A stretch of DNA of 64,000 nucleotides from Leucoraja erinacea. Lineage: Eukaryota. Where the stretch lies: contig NC_073400.1 in NCBI RefSeq assembly GCF_028641065.1, positions 15,066,001 to 15,130,000 on the forward strand, read 5' to 3'. This document shows positions 231 to 58,255 of this stretch, piece after piece. Position numbers and translations under genes: made by a program. Below the pieces are notes generated by a model, which searched no databases, was not told where the DNA came from, and saw only the letters and a program-made list of their open reading frames with translations. How positions within the stretch are numbered: the stretch's first letter is position 1; each line of letters opens with the position of its first letter.

Positions 231-511
231 AGAAACAAGTAACTGCAAATGCTGGTTTACAAAGGACGCAGAGTGTTGGTGTAACTCAAAGGGTCAGGCC
301 GCGTCAGTGGAGAACATGGATAGGTGATGTTTCAGGTTGGGACCCTTCTTCAGTTACCATGTTATGTGCTGTGTGTATTTTTGCTTTTTTACTTAGTATG
401 GCTGTATGGCAACTCAAATTTCACTGGTGACAATTAAAGTGATTCTTGAATCTTGATGTTCTCCAGAGTTGCTGCCTGACCTGCTGAGTTACTCCAGCAC
501 CATGTGTCCTT
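231..511. mobile_element. Penelope-terminus-derived fold-back element, interrupted by a LINE-like 3' tail (about 353-456)
   Basis: Left arm ends ...GGTGATGTTTCAGGTTGGGACCCTTCTTCAG. Right arm TGTTCTCCAGAGTTGCTGCCTGACCTGCTGAGTTACTCCAGCAC is the inverse of part of it. The insert ends in (CTTGAAT)n. Confidence 0.65.
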
Positions 512-4946: not shown

Positions 4947-5646
4947 TTTAGTTTAGTTCAGCGATATAGCGTGGAAACAGGCCCATTTGACCCAGCAAGT
5001 CCGCGCCAACCAGCAATCACCGCACACAAACACTGCACCACACACACTAGGGACAATGTAACTGAAGCCAATTAATTTACAAACCTGTGCGTCTTTGGAG
5101 TGTGGGAGGAAACCCGAGCACCCGGAGAAAACCCACGCAGGTGAATGGTGAAGAGAGTGGTGAAAATTGCCCAACGCATCACCGGTTCCACGCTCCCCTC
5201 CATTGAGTCTGTCCAAAGCAAGCGCTGTCTGCAGAGGGCGCTCAGCATCGCCAAGGACTGCTCTCACCCCAACCATGGACTGTTTACCCTCCTACCATCC
5301 GGGAGGCGCTACAGGTCTCTCCGTTGCCGAACCAGCAGGTCGAGGAACAGCTTCTTTCCGGCGGCTGTCACTCTACTAAACAACGTACCTCGGTGACTGC
5401 CAATCACCACCCCCCCCCGGACACTTATTATTTTTTTTATTCAAATCGTTTGCTATGTCGCTCTTCAAGGGAGATGCTAAATGCATTTCGTTGTCTCTGT
5501 ACTGTACACTGACAATGACAATTAAAATTGAATCTGAATCTGAATCAGGTCACGGGGTGAACATACAAACTCCGTACAGACAGCACCCGTAGTCACAAAC
5601 CCAGATCTGTGGCGTTGCAAGACAGCAACTCCACCGCTGTTTTGCC
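4947..5646 (-). mobile_element. HE1/V-SINE interrupted by a Rex1 fragment
   Basis: The SINE sequence ACCCACGCAGGT|CACGGGG is split at 5142/5551. Confidence 0.85.
5143..5545 (+). mobile_element. Rex1/Babar LINE, 5'-truncated 3' end
   Basis: ORF 5145..5396 RVVKIAQRITG..LPSI...HPNHGLFTLLPSGRRYRSL...NSFFP.AV.LLN is the Rex1 C-terminus. (GAATCT)n tail. TSD CAGGT (5138-5142 and 5546-5550). Confidence 0.9.
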
Positions 5647-5769
5647 TCGTATCTACACTAATGAGTCATTCATGGTGGTCAATTAAACTACCTGCACACA
5701 AATGTATTGTTAATTATTGTATATTACTATGTGTTATTACGTTAATGGACTTCTTAAGATGCAGCAAGC

Positions 5770-6062
5770 AAGGATGACACAGTGGCACAGCTGCTCCCCC
5801 ACAGCATCAGACACCCTGTTTCGATTCCTGATCACAGGTGCTGTCTGTGTACAACTTGCATCTTCTCCCTGTTACTTCCTGACCCCTTGCCTTTCCTCCG
5901 GGTGCTCCGGTATCCTCCCACATCCAAAAGACGTGCGGGTTTGTACATTAATTGACTTCTGCAAATCGCCCCTCATGTGGAGAGATTGGATGAGAAAGTG
6001 GGATAACACAGATTTAGTGTGAACGGGTAATCGATGGTTGGTGTGGACTCAGTGGGCTGAGG
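5770..6062 (+). mobile_element. HE1/V-SINE
   Basis: B box GTTTCGATTCC, then GGTGCTGTCTGT and TCCGGGTGCTCCGG core. Confidence 0.75.
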
Positions 6063-9212: not shown

Positions 9213-9399
9213 TTGTGTAGGAAGGAACTGCAGATGCTAGTTTAAACCAAAGATAGACACAAAAAGCTGGAGTAACTCAGTGGGACAGGCAGCATCTCTG
9301 GAGAGAAGAAATGGAGGATGTTTCGGGTCAAGACTGAAGGGTCTCAACCCGAAACGTCACCCATTCCTTCTCTCCAGAGATGCTGCCTGCCCCGCTGAG
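9213..9399. mobile_element. Penelope-terminus fold-back element
   Basis: Inverted arms GCAGCATCTCTGGAGAGAAG and CTTCTCTCCAGAGATGCTGC surround GACTGAAGGGTCTCAACCCGAAACGTC. Confidence 0.75.
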
Positions 9400-14798: not shown

Positions 14799-15020
14799 GT
14801 ACACAAAAATGCTGGAGAAACTCAGCGGGTGCAGCAGCATCTATGGAGTGAAGGAAATAGGCAATGTTTCGGGCCGAAACCCTTCTTCAGACTGAAGAAA
14901 GGTTTTGGCCCAAAACGTTGCCTATTTCCTTCGATCCATAGATGCTGCTGCACCCGCTCAGTTTCTCCAGCATTTTTGTGTACCTTCGATTTTCCAGCAT
15001 CTGCAGTTCCTTCTTAAACA
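14799..15020. mobile_element. Penelope-terminus fold-back palindrome (92-bp arms, centre 14891)
   Basis: 14799-14890 is a near-perfect reverse complement of 14892-14983. The centre reads CTTCTTCAG-A-CTGAAGAA. Confidence 0.85.
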
Positions 15021-15206: not shown

Positions 15207-15465
15207 GGGCTGCAAGGTGGCGCAGTGGTCGAGTTGCTGCCTTCCGGCGCCAGAGACCCCGGTTCGATCCCGACTATGGGTGCTGTCTGTACGGAGTTTG
15301 TACGTACTCCCCTGTGATTGTGTGGGTTTTCTCCCGGAGGTAAGGTTTCCTCCCACACTTCAGAGGTTATTTGGCTTCTTCAGTAAGAATTGGAAATTGG
15401 CCCAAGTGTGTCGGATAGTGCTAGCGTACGGGGACTGCTGGTTGGCACAGACTCAGTGGGCTGAG
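15207..15465 (+). mobile_element. HE1/V-SINE
   Basis: GGTGGCGCAGTGG A box, GGTTCGATCCC B box and V-core. Confidence 0.85.
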
Positions 15466-15875
15466 GGTAGACAAAAATGCTGGAGAAACTCAGTGGTGAG
15501 GCAGCATCTATAGAGCAAAGGAATAGGTGATATTTCGGGTCGAGACCCGTCTTCAGACTGATGTGGGGGGGGGGGGGGGGGGGGGGGACGGGTAAGAAGA
15601 AAGGAAGAGGCAGAGACAGTAGGCTGTGGGAGAGCTGGGAAGGGGAAGGAGGGAGAAAGCAAGGACTACCTGAAATTGAAGAAGTCAAGAAGTAAACTAC
15701 CCAAGCGACAAATGAGGTGCTGCTCCTCCAATTTGCTGTGGGACTCACTCTAGCCATGGTGGAGGCCCAGGACAGAAAGGTCGGATTCGGAATGGGAGGG
15801 GGAGTTGAAGTGCTGAGCCACCGGGAGATCCGGTTGGTTAATGCGAATTGTACGGAGGTGTTGGGCGAAGCGTTT
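15466..15875 (-). mobile_element. Penelope-like element 3' fragment (GIY-YIG C-terminus, G23 tract, hammerhead-like terminus)
   Basis: Reverse strand encodes a fragment resembling LEEQHLICRLGSL. The terminus reads CAGTCTGAAGACGGGTCTCGACCCGAAATATCACC. Confidence 0.8.
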
Positions 15876-16397: not shown

Positions 16398-16716
16398 AGT
16401 TTAGTTTAGGGATACAGGATGGAAACAGCCCCATCATCCCACAGAGCCCATGTCTATCATCGATCACCCGTTCACACTAGTTCAATATTATCCCACTTTC
16501 ACATCTAGTCCCCCCCACACTAGGGGCAATTTTACAAAAGTCAATTAACCCGGAGACCTGCACATGTTTGGGATGTGGGAGGAAACCAGAGCACCTGGAG
16601 GAAACTCACACAGTGGCAGGGATAATGTACAAACTCCACACCAACAGTACCGGAGGGCAGGATCAAACCCAGGTCTCTGGTGCTGTGAGACGTTGGATCT
16701 GCTGGCTGCGCCGCCC
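16398..16716 (-). mobile_element. HE1/V-SINE
   Basis: Reverse-strand copy with (TAAAC)n tail. Confidence 0.8.
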
Positions 16717-16872
16717 AAATATCACTTGTATAACTAGATGTATAATAACTAGATTTTCAAACAAATTATATAAGAAGACAGGAAGCTTTAATATAACATA
16801 TTCAATAAGAGAATTATACCTTCTTCTACCACAAGAATGATGCTTTCTGTGAGTTGCTACAAATACTTCAGA

Positions 16873-17179
16873 CGGTGTGGTGGTGCAGTGGAAGCATTCC
16901 TGCCTTACAGCACTCGCAGCGCCAGTGACCCAAATTCGATCCTGACTCCGGGTGCTGTCTGTATGGAGTTTGTACGTACTCCCCATGACCGCGTGGGTTT
17001 TCTCCGAGATGATTGGTTTCCTCCCACACTCCGAGACGTACAGGTTTGTAAGTTAATTGGCTTGGTATAAGTGTAAATTGTCCTTAGTGTATATAGGATA
17101 GTGTGAATGCATGGGGATCGCTGATCTGTGCGGACTCGGTGGCCATGTTTCTGCGCTGTATCTGTGAACTAAACTAAAC
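16873..17179 (+). mobile_element. HE1/V-SINE
   Basis: GGTGCTGTCTGTATGGAGTTTGTACG core and AACTAAACTAAACT tail. Confidence 0.85.
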
Positions 17180-23855: not shown

Positions 23856-24140
23856 GTGTGCACAGTGGTGCAGTGGTAGAACATAGCGCCAGAGACCCGG
23901 GTTCGATCCTGACCTTGGGTGCTGTCTGTGTGGAATTTACATGTTCTCCTCGTGACCACATGGGTTTTTTCCGGGTGGTCCGGTTTTCTCACACATTTCA
24001 ATGACATGCAGGTTTGTAGGTCAATTGGTTTCTGTAAATTGTGGCTGGTGCGTGGGATAGAACCAGTGTGCGGGTGATCGATGGTCAGCGTGGTCAGTGG
24101 GCCAAAGGGCCCGTTTCCAAGTTCTATCTCTAAACGCAAC
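23856..24140 (+). mobile_element. HE1/V-SINE
   Basis: GTGGTGCAGTGG, CCCGGGTTCGATCC, core and tail. Confidence 0.85.
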
Positions 24141-24889
24141 TAATAAATACAATCAAGCTGACCTCAAGTACAAGTGGTGGAGCAAAGATACAGAGCGCAG
24201 ACTATAAACCTGTGCTAACGGTGAAATGGCATCCAAAACTGGTGCGCTCTAGTCATGGCCGATATATCTTCTTCATCCAACTGAGAGTACTCTCTCATCC
24301 GCTGGAAATGATCCAGATATAAACCAATGGCTTTTCAGAGCCATCTTGTGTTTAAAGATACAGCTTGGATACAGACCCTTTGGCCCACTGACTCCACGCT
24401 GACCATCGATCACCCGTACACTAGTTCTATCCTACATTCTTGGAACACCACAACACCAACCCCATAAGGTGATGCTTGACAAGATGCTCTGCCTGTCAGA
24501 GTTATGGATGAGCAAATCTGCAGACTGTAAAAGATCTCTGGAAAACACAAATGTCTTTTCTCGAGCTCTATTCCTTAGAATTCATTGCCACCGACGGCTG
24601 TAGAAGCCAAGTCAATGGATATATTTAAGGCGGAGATTGACGGGTTCTTAATTAGTATGGGTGTCAGGGGATATGGGGAGAAGGCAGGAGAATGGAGTCG
24701 AGAAAGAAAGATAGATCAGCCCTGATTGAATGGCAGAGTAGGCGTGATGGGCTGAATGGCCCAATTCTGCTCCTATAACTTATGAACTTGTATTCAACAT
24801 GCACTTTAGTTTTGCAGCAGTTGGTGCCATGGAGCCAAGGATACTACTAGATTTGGCAACAATTTATTATAATAACTCAACAATATCAC

Positions 24890-30596: not shown

Positions 30597-31222
30597 TAGT
30601 ATTCATTTATTGAGTTTTTGCATTATATATATTATCTGTATGGTAGAGTTTACAGGCCTGCAGAGTTACAGAAATTAAGTGTTTCATTTTCTATTGTGGC
30701 ACATATGACAATTAAACACCATTGACTCAGTATAAAGGACTCAGCTGCAAGGCTGAGTTTGCAGCAGATCTCGACCTTAGTCTCACCCATCTATTTGTTG
30801 TTGATGCATTAGCCCATGACAGCGTCAGCCCAGTAATCAATGCAGGTTTTGTAGGAGAACCTTTATAAGGCTGCATGCACTGCCACAACCTTACACACAA
30901 TTGCCTGACAACAGACGGGGCAATGAAGAGATTGCAGGGCTTTGAAAACCACAATAATTTGTACCCTTAGTGCCAGGCACATCCCGCCTCTATCATTATA
31001 GCAAGCCGAAGTGCAAGCTCTAGTTCAACAGGAGTGAAATAGTGGGCTGCGAGCAACACCAGATACATTCAACAATGAAATATTAACCTTGAGAAGTCTA
31101 CATGCATGCTGAACAATGACAACAGTATAATACAGACCATGTTAAGCATCATAACACAAGGTAGCATCTCCACAATGCTACTGTGGCAGATTCTTAATGA
31201 GGGTGGACAGGTAAACTACTAA

Positions 31223-31492
31223 AATAGACACAAAATGCTGGAGTAACTCAGCGGGCCAGGCAGCATCTCTGGAGAGAAGGAAGAGGTAACATTACAGGTC
31301 AAGAACCTTCTTTGCAGACTGAAGGTCTCAACCCAAAACATCACCTATACCTTTTTTCCCCGAATCTGAAGAAGAGTTTGACTCAAAATGTCACCTATTC
31401 CTTTTCTCCAGAGATGCTGCCTGACCCGCTGAGTTACTCCAGCATTTTGTGTCCATCTTCGGTGTAAACCAGCACCTGCAGTTCCTTGAAAC
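31223..31492. mobile_element. Penelope-terminus fold-back element with a duplicated hammerhead segment
   Basis: Inverted arms GACACAAAATGCTGGAGTAACTCAGCGGG and CCCGCTGAGTTACTCCAGCATTTTGTGTC. Two degenerate CTGAAG...AAAA..TCACCTAT units lie on the plus side. Confidence 0.75.
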
Positions 31493-31852
31493 ACAGTTAA
31501 ACTACTAATGCAAGGAGGAAGGGGCTCCTTGAATATCTTCATCTCAACGATGGTGCAAACCAAAGGTTCAAAGGTTCAAGGTTGAAGGGGAAAATCAACC
31601 ATTTTCAGCTTCAAGTGCCAAGTGGAAGGTATATCTAGACCTCGTCCGGTGACATCAACGGTCACAGAAGCTAATTAAATGCAATCCATTCGATGTGAAG
31701 CAATGGATGATTTCACTAGGGGCAGAGGTGACAGGCTCCTGGCAACCTTGTAACCATGTGTAACGCCGAAGGTGGCCTTCAGGAACAGCAACAACAGTAG
31801 ACGAATAGTGAAAAGTTGGCCAAAACCACCCACCTCATAAAATACACGATAA

Positions 31853-32390: not shown

Positions 32391-32486
32391 ACTGATGATA
32401 AAGTCCTGATGATAAATTATCAGACTCCCACAGCTTCAAACAGAAACAGCTGCTGAAATTTAGAAGGACACGATGTGCTTGATTAA

Positions 32487-32808
32487 TGGACCTGTCCCAC
32501 TCACGTGACTTTTTCGGCGACTGCCGGCACACATCATGGGACGTTGCAGGTCGCCGAAAATTTTCAATACATTGAAAATCCAACGGCAACCAGAACAAGG
32601 TACGACTCTTTGGGCGACTACTCACGACCATCCAGGCTTCACCCCGCGACATGTCGCCACTGTATTTTCCTCAGTCGTCTCCTCAGTCGCCCAAAGAGTC
32701 GTAGCGTCTTTCTGGTCGCCACTAGATTTTCACCATGTTGAAAATTTTCGGCGACCTGCAACAGGTACCGGCAGTCGCCGTAAAAGTTGCATAAGTGGGA
32801 CAGGCCCA
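32487..32808. mobile_element. PIF/Harbinger-type MITE
   Basis: TIRs of about 45 bp: TGGACCTGTCCCACTCACG..GGCGACTGCCGG and CCGGCAGTCGCC..GTGGGACAGGCCCA. TAA TSD (32484-32486 and 32809-32811). Confidence 0.88.
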
Positions 32809-32945
32809 TAACACAGAGAGTCAGCCAGCTTCTCTGGACGTTTCAGTTCAGAAACCTTCTACAGACTGATTGGAGGGGGATGTTTTGGCTTGTCTCGTCT
32901 TGTGGTCATCACTCCCAAAGAGTCCACCAGGGACTATACTGGAAG

Positions 32946-33150: not shown

Positions 33151-33219
33151 CTGGTGGGAAGAAACCAGGGAGAGAAGCAATGCAGGGCAAAGTGTGGCAG
33201 CCAACAGATGGAATGCGTC

Positions 33220-33450
33220 AGGAGAAACTGCAGGTGCTGGTTTAAACCAAAGACAGACACAAAATGCTGGAATAACTCAGCGGGTCAGGCAGCATCACTG
33301 GAGAAAAGGAATAGATGACGTTTCAGGTCGAGACCCTTCATCAGACCTGGGTCTGAAGAAGGATGTCGACCCGAAACATCACCTATTCTTTTACTCCAGT
33401 GATGCTGCCTGGCCCGCTGAGTTACTCCAGCATTCTGTGTCTGTCTTTGT
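33220..33450. mobile_element. Penelope-terminus fold-back palindrome with hammerhead-like motifs on both strands
   Basis: Centre: GACGTTTCAGGTCGAGACCCTTCATCAGACC-TG-GGTCTGAAGAAGGATGTCGACCCGAAACATCACC. The arms are inverted. Confidence 0.82.
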
Positions 33451-36400
33451 TTTAGATAACAGGTGGATACAGGCAAGGGGAGGGTTTGATCGGCAGATGG
33501 TTGGAACGAAGGCCAGAGATAAAAGCAGAAGGTGTGAGGCAGGATTGAAGCATTTGCTAGAATAATTGCTGGCCGGATCTGGCAGAAAGGGCTTTCATCT
33601 GAAACAATTACTACATTTCACACTCCTCTGCTGCTGCTGCTCCACCATTTACTCATTCGTCCCTTTGCAAAACACTGTCCTGCGTACTTCTCACAATCGA
33701 GACCGATTTCTTGTTTAAAGTGCTTAGATTTATACAATGCATCAAAATATTAGGAAGCAGGGAATTTGTGTTGGTGTGAACCATGATGGGGGGGGGGGGG
33801 GGGGGGGGGTAGTGATTTCAATTAAAGTCAAATAAAGCAACATGAAAAATGTAATGCCACCAATGAAATGGGATACACAATTTGCATTTGTTACCTAACA
33901 TTTCTAAAACCCAACTTAAAGAAATCATAAAATGCTGTGAAAAATTGCAGTGAAATTATCAAAGCTCCCACTGTACTATTTATGACTTTAAACTTGCATG
34001 GTGCGAGTGCTGGGTTTGTTAGCCTCAGGCAGGCTGATTGATTGAAAGGACTATTCCTCTGCCACATATGAAATTTGCAAAATAACCTCCCATCAACCAT
34101 GGTAGATGCTGTGTTCATTAGCTCCTTGTAAATGGAGGGCAATCACCATTTGCCTATGAAAGGGACTCGTTTATAATTTGGACATAATTGTTGACATATG
34201 CATTCAAATGCTCCTTGGATCAGTGCTGATCCTGTCTCTCTATCCACATCGGGAATTCATTCCGGGATGTGCAACCAAGTGGAAATAAATAACAAATTGC
34301 AAGTCTAGATTGCCGTTCCGGATTATTCACTTGATGCGTTATGGGATTAGGAAAAAACTCTGGAGTATTCTTTTTGTGGAAGAGATTTCATTCCAGCGAG
34401 CTTTTAATCAATGTGTGGTGCTGGAAGAAACACGCTTTGTGTTTAAAGATCCCTACGTTCTTATGGTCTTTTATACAACCCAGCCATTGATCCAAACTCA
34501 TTTCTTGTGAATCAGCAGGAACATGCATCCATAAAACATAGAACAATACTGCACAGAAACAATGTGTGCGCTAAACGCAATGCCAAGATAAACTGATTTC
34601 ATGAATCTATCAAAACCTTGAACTGCTGATGTAAAAACTTTCTATTGGCCCTGTAATCTCATCTGCCTGCATATGATCCTTATCCCTCTATTCCCTGTAT
34701 ATCCATATGCCCAGATAAAAACCCACTTAAACACCACAATCATATCTGCCTCCATCACAACTCCTGGCAGCTTATGCTAAGCACCAACCACTCCGTAAAA
34801 AAATAAAACTCACCCCACACACATCTCCTTTACACTTTGCCCCTCTCACCTTAAACCTCTCCCCTCTGGGAAAATGCTTCTGAATATCTACCCTCTTGTG
34901 AATATATGCACCATCAGGTCTCCCTTCAACCATCGATGTTCCAGAAAAAACAATCCAAGTCTGTCCAACCTCTCCTGTTGGATAATACCCTCCAATCCAG
35001 GCAGCGTTATGGTCAACCTCTTCTGCACCCTCTCCAAAGCCTCCACATCCTTCCTGAAATGTGGGGACCAGAACTCAAGTCAAGAGTGTTTTATTGGTAC
35101 ACGTACTGAAACGGAACAATGTAATTCCTACTTGCAGCAGCACAACAGATATGTAAACATTGTAGTTTGTAAAACCCATAATAAACAAACAGTGCAGCAT
35201 ATATAAAAACAAGCAGACAAATAAATAGACAATAATCGTGTAATTCGTATAAGTCAATATAGTTTGGAGCATATTTGGAGGCAGTAGTGTTTAATAGCTC
35301 AATGGTTGGAGGGAAGAAGCTGCTCCTGAACCTGGACGTTACAGTTTTCATGCTCCTGTACCATCTTCCCGATGGAGGAGTGAAATGAGAGTGTGGCCAT
35401 TGTGATGTGGGTCTCTGCCTTTTTGAAGCAACACTGACCAGCGATCCCCATACACGAGCACTATACCCAAGGACAATTTACAATTTCACCAAAGCCAATA
35501 AAACACACCTGTATGTCTTTGGAGTGTGGGAGGAAACCAGAGCACCCGCAGAAAATCCACATAGTAATGGGGTGAACATACAAACTCTACAGATGTGCCG
35601 CCCTTCTCATCACAGTTCACTGTTCAACAGCAGAAAAGGCTAATTTCAAGGCCATTAAATCTAGCACATCCTGGATCTAAATTAGAATTTTCCCATAAAA
35701 ATAGAAAGCATGATAAAATGTGTTTATCCCATGAGAACAGCCCTTCAAGCCTGGCTTTCATCCATTGTATGACTCATTAAATCAGGTCACTACCTTGTGA
35801 TGTGCGCAGTGAAGCCGTACCAATTATTACTGACCCAATATACCTTGATTTTCACAAACATGTTCTCCAATTTCTTTTCCAATTAAAACAATTACTAAAT
35901 GTGTGGGAAGGAATGGCAGATGCTGGTGTACACCGAAGATAGACATAAAATGCTGGAGTAACTCAGCAGGGACATGCAGTATCTCTGGACAGAAGGAATG
36001 GACAAAGTTTTGTGTCAAGAAACAATGACTAAATGGGCAGAAAATTGCTGTTCCCTTTTAGCTAAAAACCATGAAACTAATTATCTTGTCACCTGAACAA
36101 TAATCTTTATATTTCCAATCATTTAAACCAGATGATTCCATTTATACCTCACGCTGCCTCGGCAAGGCCAGCAGCACAATCAAGATTGAGTCACACCCTG
36201 GCCACTCCCTCTTCTCCCCTCTCCCATCAGGCAAAGAAGTGTGAAAATGCACACCACCAAATTCGGGGACAGTCTCTTCACAGCTGTTATCAGGCAACTG
36301 AATCATCCTACACGACCAGAGAGCAGTGCTGAACTACTATCTACCTCTTTGATGACCCTCGAACTATCCTTGATCAGACTATGCTGGTTTTACCTTGCAC

Positions 36401-40370: not shown

Positions 40371-41000
40371 GGTGGTGGCACAGTGGCACAGCAATAGAGT
40401 AAAGGGCCTGTCCCACGAGCATGTGACTCCATGCGGCAAGCGCCACCCAACGTGGTCGCTTGAGCCATACGGCCTCGCGGGGCCGATCCCACTTCGATCG
40501 GCGGAGCCGCATGGAGTTGTGCGGAGCTGGTCCCGACATCGCACAGAGCTCCGCGCAGCAACGGCCTGCCGGCCCGCAGCCGCCTCAATGCCATACGTCA
40601 CACGTGAACTTCCAGTAGACTTCGCTCGAACATCATGTCACTCGCTCGAACATCATGTCACTCACTCGACCTCCGCGCGGCCCCCCGCTTCTGGTTTGGT
40701 CGCGCTTGCCGCATGCAGTCGCATGCTCGTGGGACAGGCCCTTTACTGCCTTACAGCACCAGAGACCCAGGTTTGACCCTGACTACTGGTGCTGTCTGCA
40801 TGGAGTTTGTACTTTCTCTCTGTGAGCACATGGGTTTTCTCCAGATGCTAGAATTTCCTCCCACTTTCCAAAGAACTGCAGGTAGGTAGGTAAATTGGCT
40901 TCTGTAAATTGTAAAAACAAGTCCCTAGTGTGTAGGATAGCGCTAGTGTACTTTGTGATCGTGGGTTGGTGTGAACTCGGTGGGGCAAAGGGCGTGTGCG
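40371..41000 (+). mobile_element. HE1/V-SINE interrupted by a MITE
   Basis: GGTGGCACAGTGGCACAGCAATAGAG|...|CTGCCTTACAGCACCAGAGACCCAGG. Confidence 0.82.
40403..40742. mobile_element. PIF/Harbinger-type MITE (GC-rich)
   Basis: TIRs of about 41 bp (AGGGCCTGTCCCACGAGCATGYGACTSCATGCGGCAAGCGC), flanked by TAA and TTA. Internal 20-bp tandem CGCTCGAACATCATGTCACT. Confidence 0.9.
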
Positions 41001-53930: not shown

Positions 53931-54199
53931 AATGTGTAGGAAGGAACTGCAGGTGCTGGTTTATATTGAAGATACACACAAAACGCTGGAGTAATTCAGC
54001 AGGTTGGGCAGTACCTATGGAGAAAAGGAATAGGTGACGTTTCGAGTCAAGAACCCTTCTTCAGACGTGAAGAAACGTTCCGACCCAAAACGCCACCTAT
54101 TCTTTTTCTCCCGAGATAGTGCCCGACCTGCTGAGTTACTCCAGCATTTTATGTGTATCTTCAATATAAACCAGCACCTGCAGTTCCTTCCTACACATT
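53931..54199. mobile_element. Penelope-terminus fold-back palindrome (134-bp arms, centre 54065)
   Basis: AATGTGTAGGAAGGAACTGCAGGTGCTGGTTTATATTGAAGATAC at the left end and GTATCTTCAATATAAACCAGCACCTGCAGTTCCTTCCTACACATT at the right end. Confidence 0.88.
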
Positions 54200-57874: not shown

Positions 57875-58255
57875 ATGTGCGCAGGAAGGAACAGCAGATG
57901 CTGGTTAACTCCCAAGATAGACACACAATGGTGGAGTGACTCAGCCAGTTAAGACTTTTGCCTCCATCACAGTGAGGAGGTGCCTGGTGAACTCACTGTG
58001 GTGGATGTTAATTTGTGTTTATATGTATGTTTTGTTATTTATTATTATATGTATGACTGCAAGCAACGAAATTTCATTCTGAATGACAATAAAGGAATCC
58101 AATCCAATTCGGTTAGGCAGCATCTCTGGAGAAAAGGTGACATTTCAGGTCAAAACTTCTTCTGAAGAAAGAAGTCTGAAGTAGGGTCTCGACCCGAAAT
58201 GTCACCTTTTCTCCAGAGATGCTGCCAAACTCTACTCCAGCATTTCATGTCTACA
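57875..58255. mobile_element. Penelope-terminus fold-back element interrupted by a retroposon tail (about 57951-58110)
   Basis: Plus-strand GTCTGAAGTAGGGTCTCGACCCGAAATGTCACC with inverted arms. The insert ends TGACAATAAAGGAATCCAATCCAAT. Confidence 0.7.

What the first reader, a model, noticed from the sequence alone, without database searches (positions are those of the whole stretch)
14799..14983. Stand-alone fold-back mini-elements placing hammerhead motifs back-to-back on both strands
Seen: several 190-280-bp elements (9213-9399, 14799-15020, 31223-31492, 33220-33450, 53931-54199, 57875-58255 and 231-511) consist only of two inverted copies of the Penelope terminus, with no coding sequence. 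In the cleanest ones the symmetry axis lies within a few nt upstream of the CTGAAGA catalytic box (CTTCTTCAG-A-CTGAAGAA). A transcript from either strand would therefore be a long hairpin containing one sense and one antisense hammerhead motif. Established: Penelope-like elements often integrate with an inverted terminal copy and carry minimal hammerheads. Inference: the recurrent fold-back point reflects either a ribozyme- or structure-defined template end during reverse transcription, or a self-propagating non-autonomous palindromic family with retrozyme-like ambisense organisation.
Basis: partly seen in the sequence, partly recalled or inferred. Interest (0 to 1): 0.7.

Follow-up and report, generated by a model that had tools for sequence, protein, structure and literature searches.

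The report
Mirror-image Penelope retroelement stumps
The DNA hairpin is real, but it is one of very many short mirror-image end-pieces of a common Penelope-type jumping gene, likely built afresh at each landing from two short copies of the front end of its RNA, with ribozyme motifs that are predicted to be locked and inactive, so the layout is known and only the regular footprints of its insertion mechanism are of note.

Summary
The palindrome is real (92-nt arms, 92% complementary). Each arm is the hammerhead-bearing end of an endonuclease-positive Penelope-like element. In 1.66 Mb of this genome, 789 arms include 139 head-to-head pairs but only 9 tail-to-tail. The pairs look made anew at each insertion: 107 of 139 carry the 3' tail on exactly one arm and 2 on both (p=4e-10); many have target duplications; only 19 of 139 junctions fall in the two recurrent classes; tail side is unlinked to the axis base. 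The pile-up at CTGA is no fold-back property: solo and ORF-containing copies end there too, and none pile at the cleavage site. Recurrent axes sit on built-in micro-palindromes; in the focal family the helix-II axis, which removes both CTGA boxes, outnumbers the CTGA axis (1,373 vs 543). Helix I is only 2 bp, one focal core is mutated, and the hairpin buries both. Best reading: two coordinated priming events on the RNA's front end, stopping near its likely start and joined by microhomology. A self-propagating ambisense retrozyme is not supported. The layout is published (PMC3846280, PMC8557442), and this scan noted it before in this and other genomes.

The parts
14799..14890 (-). Left arm: end-piece of the Penelope-like element from CTGA (+1) to +92, no tail
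   Evidence: family traced to RT/GIY-YIG coding sequence
14863..14890 (-). Minimal hammerhead core on the - strand (CTGAAGA, helix II, GAAAC-ATT); catalytic boxes intact, helix I 2 bp
   Evidence: sequence; forcing the core unpaired costs 22.6 kcal/mol
14887..14895 (.). Axis: the element's own micro-palindrome TCAG-T-CTGA, reading TCAG-A-CTGA on the + strand
   Evidence: CAGT before CTGA in 28 of 30 long copies at each position; 543 exact copies of this axis type genome-wide
14892..14983 (+). Right arm: end-piece from CTGA (+1) to +92
14892..14919 (+). Minimal hammerhead core on the + strand, broken (A for G at 14912 in the GAAA box)
   Evidence: sequence; forcing the core unpaired costs 17.4 kcal/mol
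14984..15020 (+). 3' tail (about 37 nt), on this arm only
   Evidence: one-sided tail described in PMC8557442 and PMC3846280
9213..9399 (.). Asymmetric head-to-head pair, tail on the left arm, 12-nt target duplication, no intact core
31213..31495 (.). Head-to-head pair with an extra partial copy in the middle, tail on the right, 11-nt target duplication
33215..33454 (.). Head-to-head pair, both arms reach CTGA, 8-nt spacer, tail on the left; both cores pass the pattern test
53931..54199 (.). Head-to-head pair with tails on both arms (one of only 2 such among 139); right core damaged
57875..58255 (.). Compound unit: tail arm, about 155-nt unrelated insert, inner pair 58109-58253; 15-nt target duplication
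231..511 (.). Tail arm from CTGA, about 100-nt unrelated insert, short opposite arm from +37; no target duplication found
15444..15793 (-). Longer neighbouring copy that keeps the native pyrimidine-rich sequence upstream of CTGA

Best explanation
The palindrome is a gene-less, head-to-head insertion of two short end-pieces of an endonuclease-positive Penelope-like retroelement, likely made anew at insertion when both cut target strands prime reverse transcription at the element's two start points, both copies stop at or before the likely 5' end of the RNA near CTGA, and the two are joined, often at a built-in micro-palindrome; its hammerhead motifs are predicted to be inactive. Shown here: parent element, pairing, one-tail rule, target duplications, varied junctions, same-subfamily arms, the boundary at CTGA in solo and ORF-containing copies, and the 2-bp helix I. 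Inferred: that both target strands prime (from in vitro work on a lizard element, PMC11167929); that tail and no-tail ends are the two priming sites; that the boundary is the RNA's start (TCAGTCT fits an initiator consensus, recalled) rather than a stall; that joining is by microhomology. De novo origin about 0.85; two-primer mechanism about 0.6; boundary = RNA start about 0.5.
For: Parent: upstream of long copies lie a YLRYIDD motif, a CxxxxCxxC linker and a GIY-YIG domain (PF01541, E 6e-5). The same arm runs straight into the element's 5' region in 29 of 30 loci fetched with that region, so it sits at both ends of the unit. Pairing 139 vs 9. Tails per pair: one 107, none 30, both 2; among 113 pairs detectable without a tail 86/25/2 against 54/41/18 expected (p=4e-10); 0 of 30 CTGA-axis loci have two. 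Target duplications of 9 nt or more in 33 of 137 pairs vs 0.3% in shuffled flanks. Arm subtype agrees in 33 of 34 typed pairs, 17 mixed expected. Outer ends of paired arms match those of solo copies. Tail side vs axis base 14:10; recurrent arm differences mainly at CpG sites. Boundary: 148 of 511 solo and 93 of 278 paired arms; the target duplication lies within 11 nt of CTGA in 21 of 37 anchored solos; genome-wide survival 24,385 > 16,055 (-3) > 10,328 (-6) > 7,533 (-10); 7 of 30 ORF-containing copies begin at -10..+3. Long insertions L096 and L098 show the same one-tail layout.
Against: No cap or start-site data: RNA reads of a relative showed no place where molecules begin, and the boundary is spread over about 10 nt, with 31% of focal-family copies passing it, so a stall at the C-rich tract is not excluded. 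The tail arm is the shorter one in 40 pairs and the longer in 24 (p=0.06), so one versus two RNA templates is open. 30 of 139 pairs have no tail, and only 183 of 511 solos have one. The focal copy has no recognisable target duplication. Breakpoints come from local profile alignments and are uncertain by a few nt; one of the 7 boundary copies is the query itself. Ribozyme inactivity is a prediction; a Penelope element with a 2-bp helix I and a protein-assisted hammerhead are both in print.
Confidence: 0.72

Rival explanations
1. Fold-back self-priming: one cDNA (or an antisense RNA, as proposed in PMC3846280) folds at a micro-palindrome and is copied back to make the second arm.
For: The two recurrent axes sit on intrinsic inverted repeats; arms are of one subtype and up to 100% identical over 85 nt; element-body reads in a relative are about 3:1 strand-biased, direction unknown.
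Against: A copied arm cannot hold what its template lacks: in 40 of 64 unequal one-tail pairs the tail-less arm reaches further in than the tail arm, while the tail is only on the other arm. The tail-less arm ends where solo copies end. 120 of 139 junctions are at neither micro-palindrome. Later central deletions could blur this.
Confidence: 0.15
2. Self-propagating non-autonomous palindromic family with retrozyme-like ambisense ribozymes.
For: Two exact junctions recur 543 and 1,373 times; fold-back junctions occur in polyA reads of a relative and arms are covered on both strands; 2 of 139 pairs keep both cores.
Against: Junction diversity, one-tail rule, tail side unlinked to axis base; both outer ends are fixed priming-type ends, which one pass over a hairpin RNA would not give; the commoner axis deletes both CTGA boxes; helix I 2 bp in 16 of 22 intact native cores; opening the cores costs 17-23 kcal/mol. 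Published animal retrozymes are tandem repeats. For the helix-II class only the six pairs in my sample were seen, with mixed centre bases.
Confidence: 0.05
3. The boundary at CTGA is a reverse-transcriptase stall (ribozyme fold, C-rich tract) or a 3' splice site (pyrimidine tract plus CAG), not a transcription start; the rest as in the best explanation.
For: All six upstream families have a pyrimidine tract ending in CAG-T-CTGA; in Drosophila virilis Penelope the intron ends at the 5' end of a 2-bp helix I (PMC4209133); the boundary is 10 nt wide.
Against: Boundary copies share no upstream exon and many keep ATCAGT; no GT..AG joint among the 15 joints listed (21 not shown); a fold would be expected to stop the enzyme on its 3' side, and ends decline smoothly from the boundary into the arm.
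Confidence: 0.3
4. Miniature inverted-repeat DNA transposon, or chance neighbouring of independent insertions.
For: Inverted outer ends, target duplications and high copy number resemble MITEs; arm density is 0.47 per kb.
Against: Ends are unequal (one tail), duplications vary from 9 to 18 nt, junctions vary, and the sequence is the end of an RT-GIY-YIG element; chance would give as many tail-to-tail pairs (9 vs 139).
Confidence: 0.02

Closest known systems
Insertion units of endonuclease-positive Penelope-like elements with inverted pLTR, one-sided tail and target duplication (Adineta vaga Pen2a, PMC3846280; general scheme in PMC8557442 fig. 2 legend; passages read)
   Same: Head-to-head inverted terminal copy, palindromic junction, 30-40-nt tail on one end, target duplication, initiator-like motif in the pLTR.
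   Different: Here the unit is usually reduced to two 60-130-nt arms without coding sequence, in roughly 180,000 pairs (extrapolated from 132 pairs in 1.6 Mb), with a sharp 5' boundary at the hammerhead's first box; that paper favoured self-priming on an antisense template, which the arm asymmetries here argue against.
Minimal hammerheads of metazoan PLE pLTRs (PMC4209133; parts 1-2 of 4 read)
   Same: CUGANGA, helix II, GAAAC-GUC with no helix III loop; the paper already notes pairs of motifs 100-700 bp apart on opposite strands in Schistosoma and a 2-bp helix I in D. virilis Penelope.
   Different: Typical helix I there is 4-5 bp; here it is 2 bp in all six upstream families, and in fold-backs the two motifs lie in one hairpin. 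Rfam did not detect them.
Poseidon element of Anolis (PAc) studied in vitro (PMC11167929; parts 1-2 of 4 read)
   Same: Two reverse-transcription start sites that delimit the tail, both target strands cut and extended, priming inside the pLTR-ORF junction, uncleaved RNA as template.
   Different: Different clade (linker here points to Neptune or Nematis); that paper did not reconstitute inverted products or a 5' boundary in the parts read.
Animal non-LTR retrozymes (bioRxiv 10.64898/2026.07.22.740005; part 1 of 5 and passages read)
   Same: Gene-less, hammerhead-bearing, derived from PLE pLTRs.
   Different: Retrozymes are direct tandem repeats with complete type I hammerheads; these units are inverted, lack helix I and show no sign of copying themselves.

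Membership tests
Endonuclease-positive Penelope-like element | Parent ORF with RT followed by C-terminal GIY-YIG endonuclease | tested here: met
   GIY-YIG PF01541 E 6e-5 above cut-off in 1 of 4 fragments, below cut-off in a second; YLRYIDD motif seen by eye, no Pfam RT hit on the partial frame
Endonuclease-positive Penelope-like element | pLTR: same sequence at the 3' end and before the ORF (partial tandem) | tested here: met
   arm plus tail precedes the 5' region in 29 of 30 loci; 16 of 30 carry longer upstream tandem sequence
Endonuclease-positive Penelope-like element | Inverted 5'-truncated copy, one-sided tail, variable target duplication | tested here: met
Neptune clade | Zn-finger-like CxxxxCxxC linker between RT and endonuclease | tested here: met
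   CNRKKCNTC and CTRKRCNTC; shared with Nematis per PMC8557442
Neptune clade | RT phylogeny | not tested
   no tree built
Minimal type I hammerhead | CUGANGA and GAAA boxes, helix II, NUH site | tested here: inconclusive
   met on the focal - strand, not met on the + strand (14912); both arms intact in 2 of 139 pairs by a crude pattern
Minimal type I hammerhead | Helix I of about 4-5 bp | tested here: not met
   2 bp in 16, 0-1 in 5, 3 in 1 of 22 native copies with intact core, out of 106 examined
Minimal type I hammerhead | Self-cleavage | not testable with these tools
   no 5'-end pile at the cleavage site in DNA copies; folding predicts burial
Non-LTR retrozyme | Direct tandem units each with a complete hammerhead | tested here: not met
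   units are inverted pairs; helix I missing
Non-LTR retrozyme | Circular RNA intermediates | not testable with these tools
   only one polyA raw-read run of a relative and contig sets were available
Self-propagating palindromic family | Fixed junction, fixed ends and shared arm differences among copies | tested here: not met
   helix-II class seen only in 6 sampled pairs
MITE | Equal terminal inverted repeats and fixed-length target duplication | tested here: not met
   one-sided tail; 9-18-nt duplications

The most novel reading that the evidence does not exclude
These stumps are a genome-scale record of how Penelope-like elements insert: one enzyme dimer primes both cut target ends, always one at each of its two start sites, on the front copy of the pLTR, giving strong-stop-like cDNAs that run off at an initiator overlapping the hammerhead's first box and are fused head to head. 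This would explain inverted pLTRs and one-sided tails by one mechanism and replace the published self-priming proposal.
Probability: 0.4. Interest if true: 0.6.

Novelty: new member of a known kind. Interest (0 to 1): 0.33.

Why it matters
How Penelope-like elements make inverted ends and one-sided tails is still open in the papers read. The palindrome itself is an ordinary fossil, but the family is so abundant that simple counts test mechanisms: the near-absence of two-tailed pairs shows that the two arms are coordinated, and the boundary at CTGA in ORF-containing copies points to where the RNA begins. Both give sharp predictions for an existing in vitro system. About a million arms and 180,000 hairpins (extrapolated) could also be a large source of double-stranded RNA in host transcripts; this was not tested.

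Tried and rejected
Rfam scan of the window: no hammerhead family, eight below-threshold hairpin or snoRNA matches. Bare CTGANGA count, 48 vs 38.6 expected, is uninformative. Cleavage-defined ends: rejected, no pile at +29. Hidden inverted tail stubs before solo copies: 3 of 339, not above the control. Exon capture or splicing onto CAG-TCTGA: target duplications abut CTGA, upstream sequence is unique, ends spread over 10 nt; no GT..AG joint among listed joints, 21 hidden. Helix I restored by flanks or by the opposite arm: 3-4 bp in only 7 of 65 solo cores. Tail arm always shorter (single-RNA model): weak, 40 vs 24. Shared sequence behind tails in the sampled stretches: none of element origin among 281 tails. 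Sequencing runs: no RNA holder listed; the reads laid are of a relative and of many copies at once, so they say nothing on this locus. Flanks of the genome-wide helix-II-axis copies were not obtained, which leaves the clade test for that class open. Five literature searches found no paper counting tails or 5' ends in such pairs; supplements were not read, and reviews of 2005-2006 and a 2017 paper on dimeric cleavage are recalled only.

Full report
Observation. The focal inverted repeat is as described: 92-nt arms, 92% complementary, one base apart, centre CTTCTTCAG-A-CTGAAGAA, plus a 37-nt extension on the right arm only. Of the seven listed elements three have the axis near CTGA, three are compound and one lacks both cores; three have 11-15-nt target duplications, the focal one has none. 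Positions below count the C of CTGA as +1; the scripts number the base before it 0.

Parent element. Arms in unselected stretches led to six families of upstream sequence, all pyrimidine-rich and ending in CAGT before CTGA. The focal family continues upstream into a frame with YLRYIDD, a CxxxxCxxC linker and a GIY-YIG domain (PF01541 above cut-off in 1 of 4 fragments, no RT hit on the partial frame). This is an endonuclease-positive Penelope-like element, Neptune or Nematis by the linker (PMC8557442 passages; no tree built). The arm is also the front of the unit: in L202 it runs through the tail into the element's 5' region, and so it does in 29 of the 30 loci fetched with that region.

Census. 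I took 160 stretches of 10 kb at round coordinates on contigs C1-C36 plus the window, 1,664,000 bases. Profile searches found 789 arms (20 bits or more, reaching +60), with 139 head-to-head pairs, 9 tail-to-tail and 52 tandem (an earlier half-sample gave 70, 5 and 15). The 132 pairs outside the window extrapolate roughly to 180,000 in the genome. 3' ends are bimodal, near +90-104 or +120-135 with the tail, alike in paired and solo arms.

Pairs are made at insertion. Tails per pair: one 107, none 30, both 2. Among the 113 pairs whose arms are detectable without a tail the counts are 86, 25, 2 against 54, 41, 18 for independent arms (p=4e-10). Flank matches of 9 nt or more occur in 33 of 137 pairs against 0.3% in shuffled pairings. 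Arm subtype agrees in 33 of 34 pairs that could be typed; partners are closer than strangers (median identity 0.87 vs 0.80 in 73 pairs, though the partner is the best match in only 10). Junctions: 10 of the TCAG-W-CTGA kind, 9 on helix II, 120 others. The nine loci fetched for the focal query all have one tail and five junction forms. In the first 30 of 543 exact CTGA-axis copies the tail is left of the central A in 14, right in 10, absent in 6, on both in 0; duplications of 13-21 nt (including a few letters of overlap) were found in all 10 loci where both ends could be placed; repeated arm differences are mainly at CpG sites. A founder palindrome would link these features. Long insertions L096 and L098 show the same layout at larger scale.

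The boundary at CTGA. 241 of 789 5' ends fall in ten positions around CTGA: 148 of 511 solo and 93 of 278 paired arms; 29 fall in the 34 positions from -49 to -16, 106 go 50 nt or more upstream, and 11 fall at +28..+30, where cleavage would cut. Solo copies are true insertions ending there: the duplication lies within 11 nt of CTGA in 21 of 37 anchored cases, one of which is a tandem tail match. Whole-genome exact counts on one 25-nt core give 24,385, then 16,055 with native sequence to -3, 10,328 to -6 and 7,533 to -10 (point changes and subfamily variants account for part of the loss). Among the 30 ORF-containing loci, 7 begin at -10..+3 (one is the query), 7 inside or behind the arm and 16 further upstream; 24 of 30 run on to the end of the fetched DNA. 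So the boundary belongs to the template, not to fold-backs. TCAGTCT fits an initiator consensus and the upstream tract holds GC-box-like runs (both recalled); PMC3846280 notes an initiator-like TCACT in a rotifer pLTR. A splice acceptor has a precedent in D. virilis (PMC4209133), but boundary copies share no upstream exon. A stall remains possible.

Why the axis recurs. TCAG-T-CTGA is the element's own 4-bp micro-palindrome at the boundary, so two copies ending there can anneal. The focal family has a 7-bp one in helix II, and that axis is commoner: 6 vs 2 pairs in the sample and 1,373 exact 35-mers vs 543 exact 29-mers in the genome. It removes both CTGA boxes, so ribozyme cores are not what is preserved.

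Ribozyme. Helix I is 2 bp in 16 of 22 native copies with an intact core (of 106 examined). The focal + strand core has A for G at 14912. Either strand folds into one hairpin (-157 and -158 kcal/mol); unpairing the core costs 17.4 and 22.6. Both cores pass a crude pattern in 2 of 139 pairs, one in 32, none in 105. Against certainty: published minimal hammerheads are weak and may need protein.

RNA. No RNA holder was listed. About 6 in 100 of one polyA run of a relative, laid on two long copies, covered the arm on both strands about equally, showed five opposite-strand joints in the arm among 15 listed (7-14 reads each; 63 joints not shown), no place where many molecules begin or end, and a 3:1 strand bias over the body whose direction I cannot assign. 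This fits passive transcription of many copies.

Mechanism. In vitro, the Anolis Poseidon protein cuts and extends both target strands, starts at two sites that delimit the tail, primes inside the pLTR-ORF junction and uses uncleaved RNA (PMC11167929). Applied here (inference): each target end primes at one of the two sites; priming on the front pLTR gives 100-130-nt cDNAs that end near the RNA's start; the two are trimmed and joined, or one is lost, giving pairs and solos. Copy-back of one cDNA fits worse, because in 40 of 64 unequal one-tail pairs each arm holds sequence that the other lacks.

Comparison and verdict. Inverted pLTRs with palindromic junctions, one-sided tails and duplications are in PMC3846280 and PMC8557442 (passages; also PMC8969392); opposite-strand pairs of minimal hammerheads are in PMC4209133. 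Eight earlier notes of this scan, seen after my tests, reach similar readings and are not independent support. New member of a known kind; interest 0.33, carried by the mechanistic footprints.

Noticed in passing
L181:2843-2878 and 7478; L194 (oriented) 795-1126: Pairs whose centre is a short array of a roughly 33-nt unit spanning helix II and the cleavage site, as if the enzyme slipped repeatedly at the hairpin.
   Followed up: no
G000 C1 and C2, listings: Exact helix-II-axis copies crowd toward contig ends (C1 150-169 Mb, C2 0-35 Mb), while CTGA-axis copies are spread evenly; may reflect a subfamily or regional mutation difference.
   Followed up: no
window 354-455 and 57953-58108: The unrelated inserts inside two listed elements resemble each other at their 3' ends (AAATTTCA...TGACAAT-AAAG), probably the end of another repeat family.
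   Followed up: no
window 40398-40747, 32486-32809, 24052-24435, 16574-17028, 5549-5875: Other inverted repeats unrelated to the Penelope arm; the first two have ends starting with a similar CCTGTCCCAC motif and look MITE-like.
   Followed up: no
L093 and L219, run X22: Reads over the element body are about 3:1 biased to one strand in both lays; sense or antisense depends on the unknown library type and bears on the antisense-template proposal.
   Followed up: partly
L019:3364-3523, L034:1329: A younger element copy ends inside or next to the hammerhead region of an older copy, tail to tail; possible targeting of own sequence, not counted.
   Followed up: no
L202:8050-8600: The element's 5' region holds a degenerate GC-rich tandem repeat of variable length among copies.
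   Followed up: no
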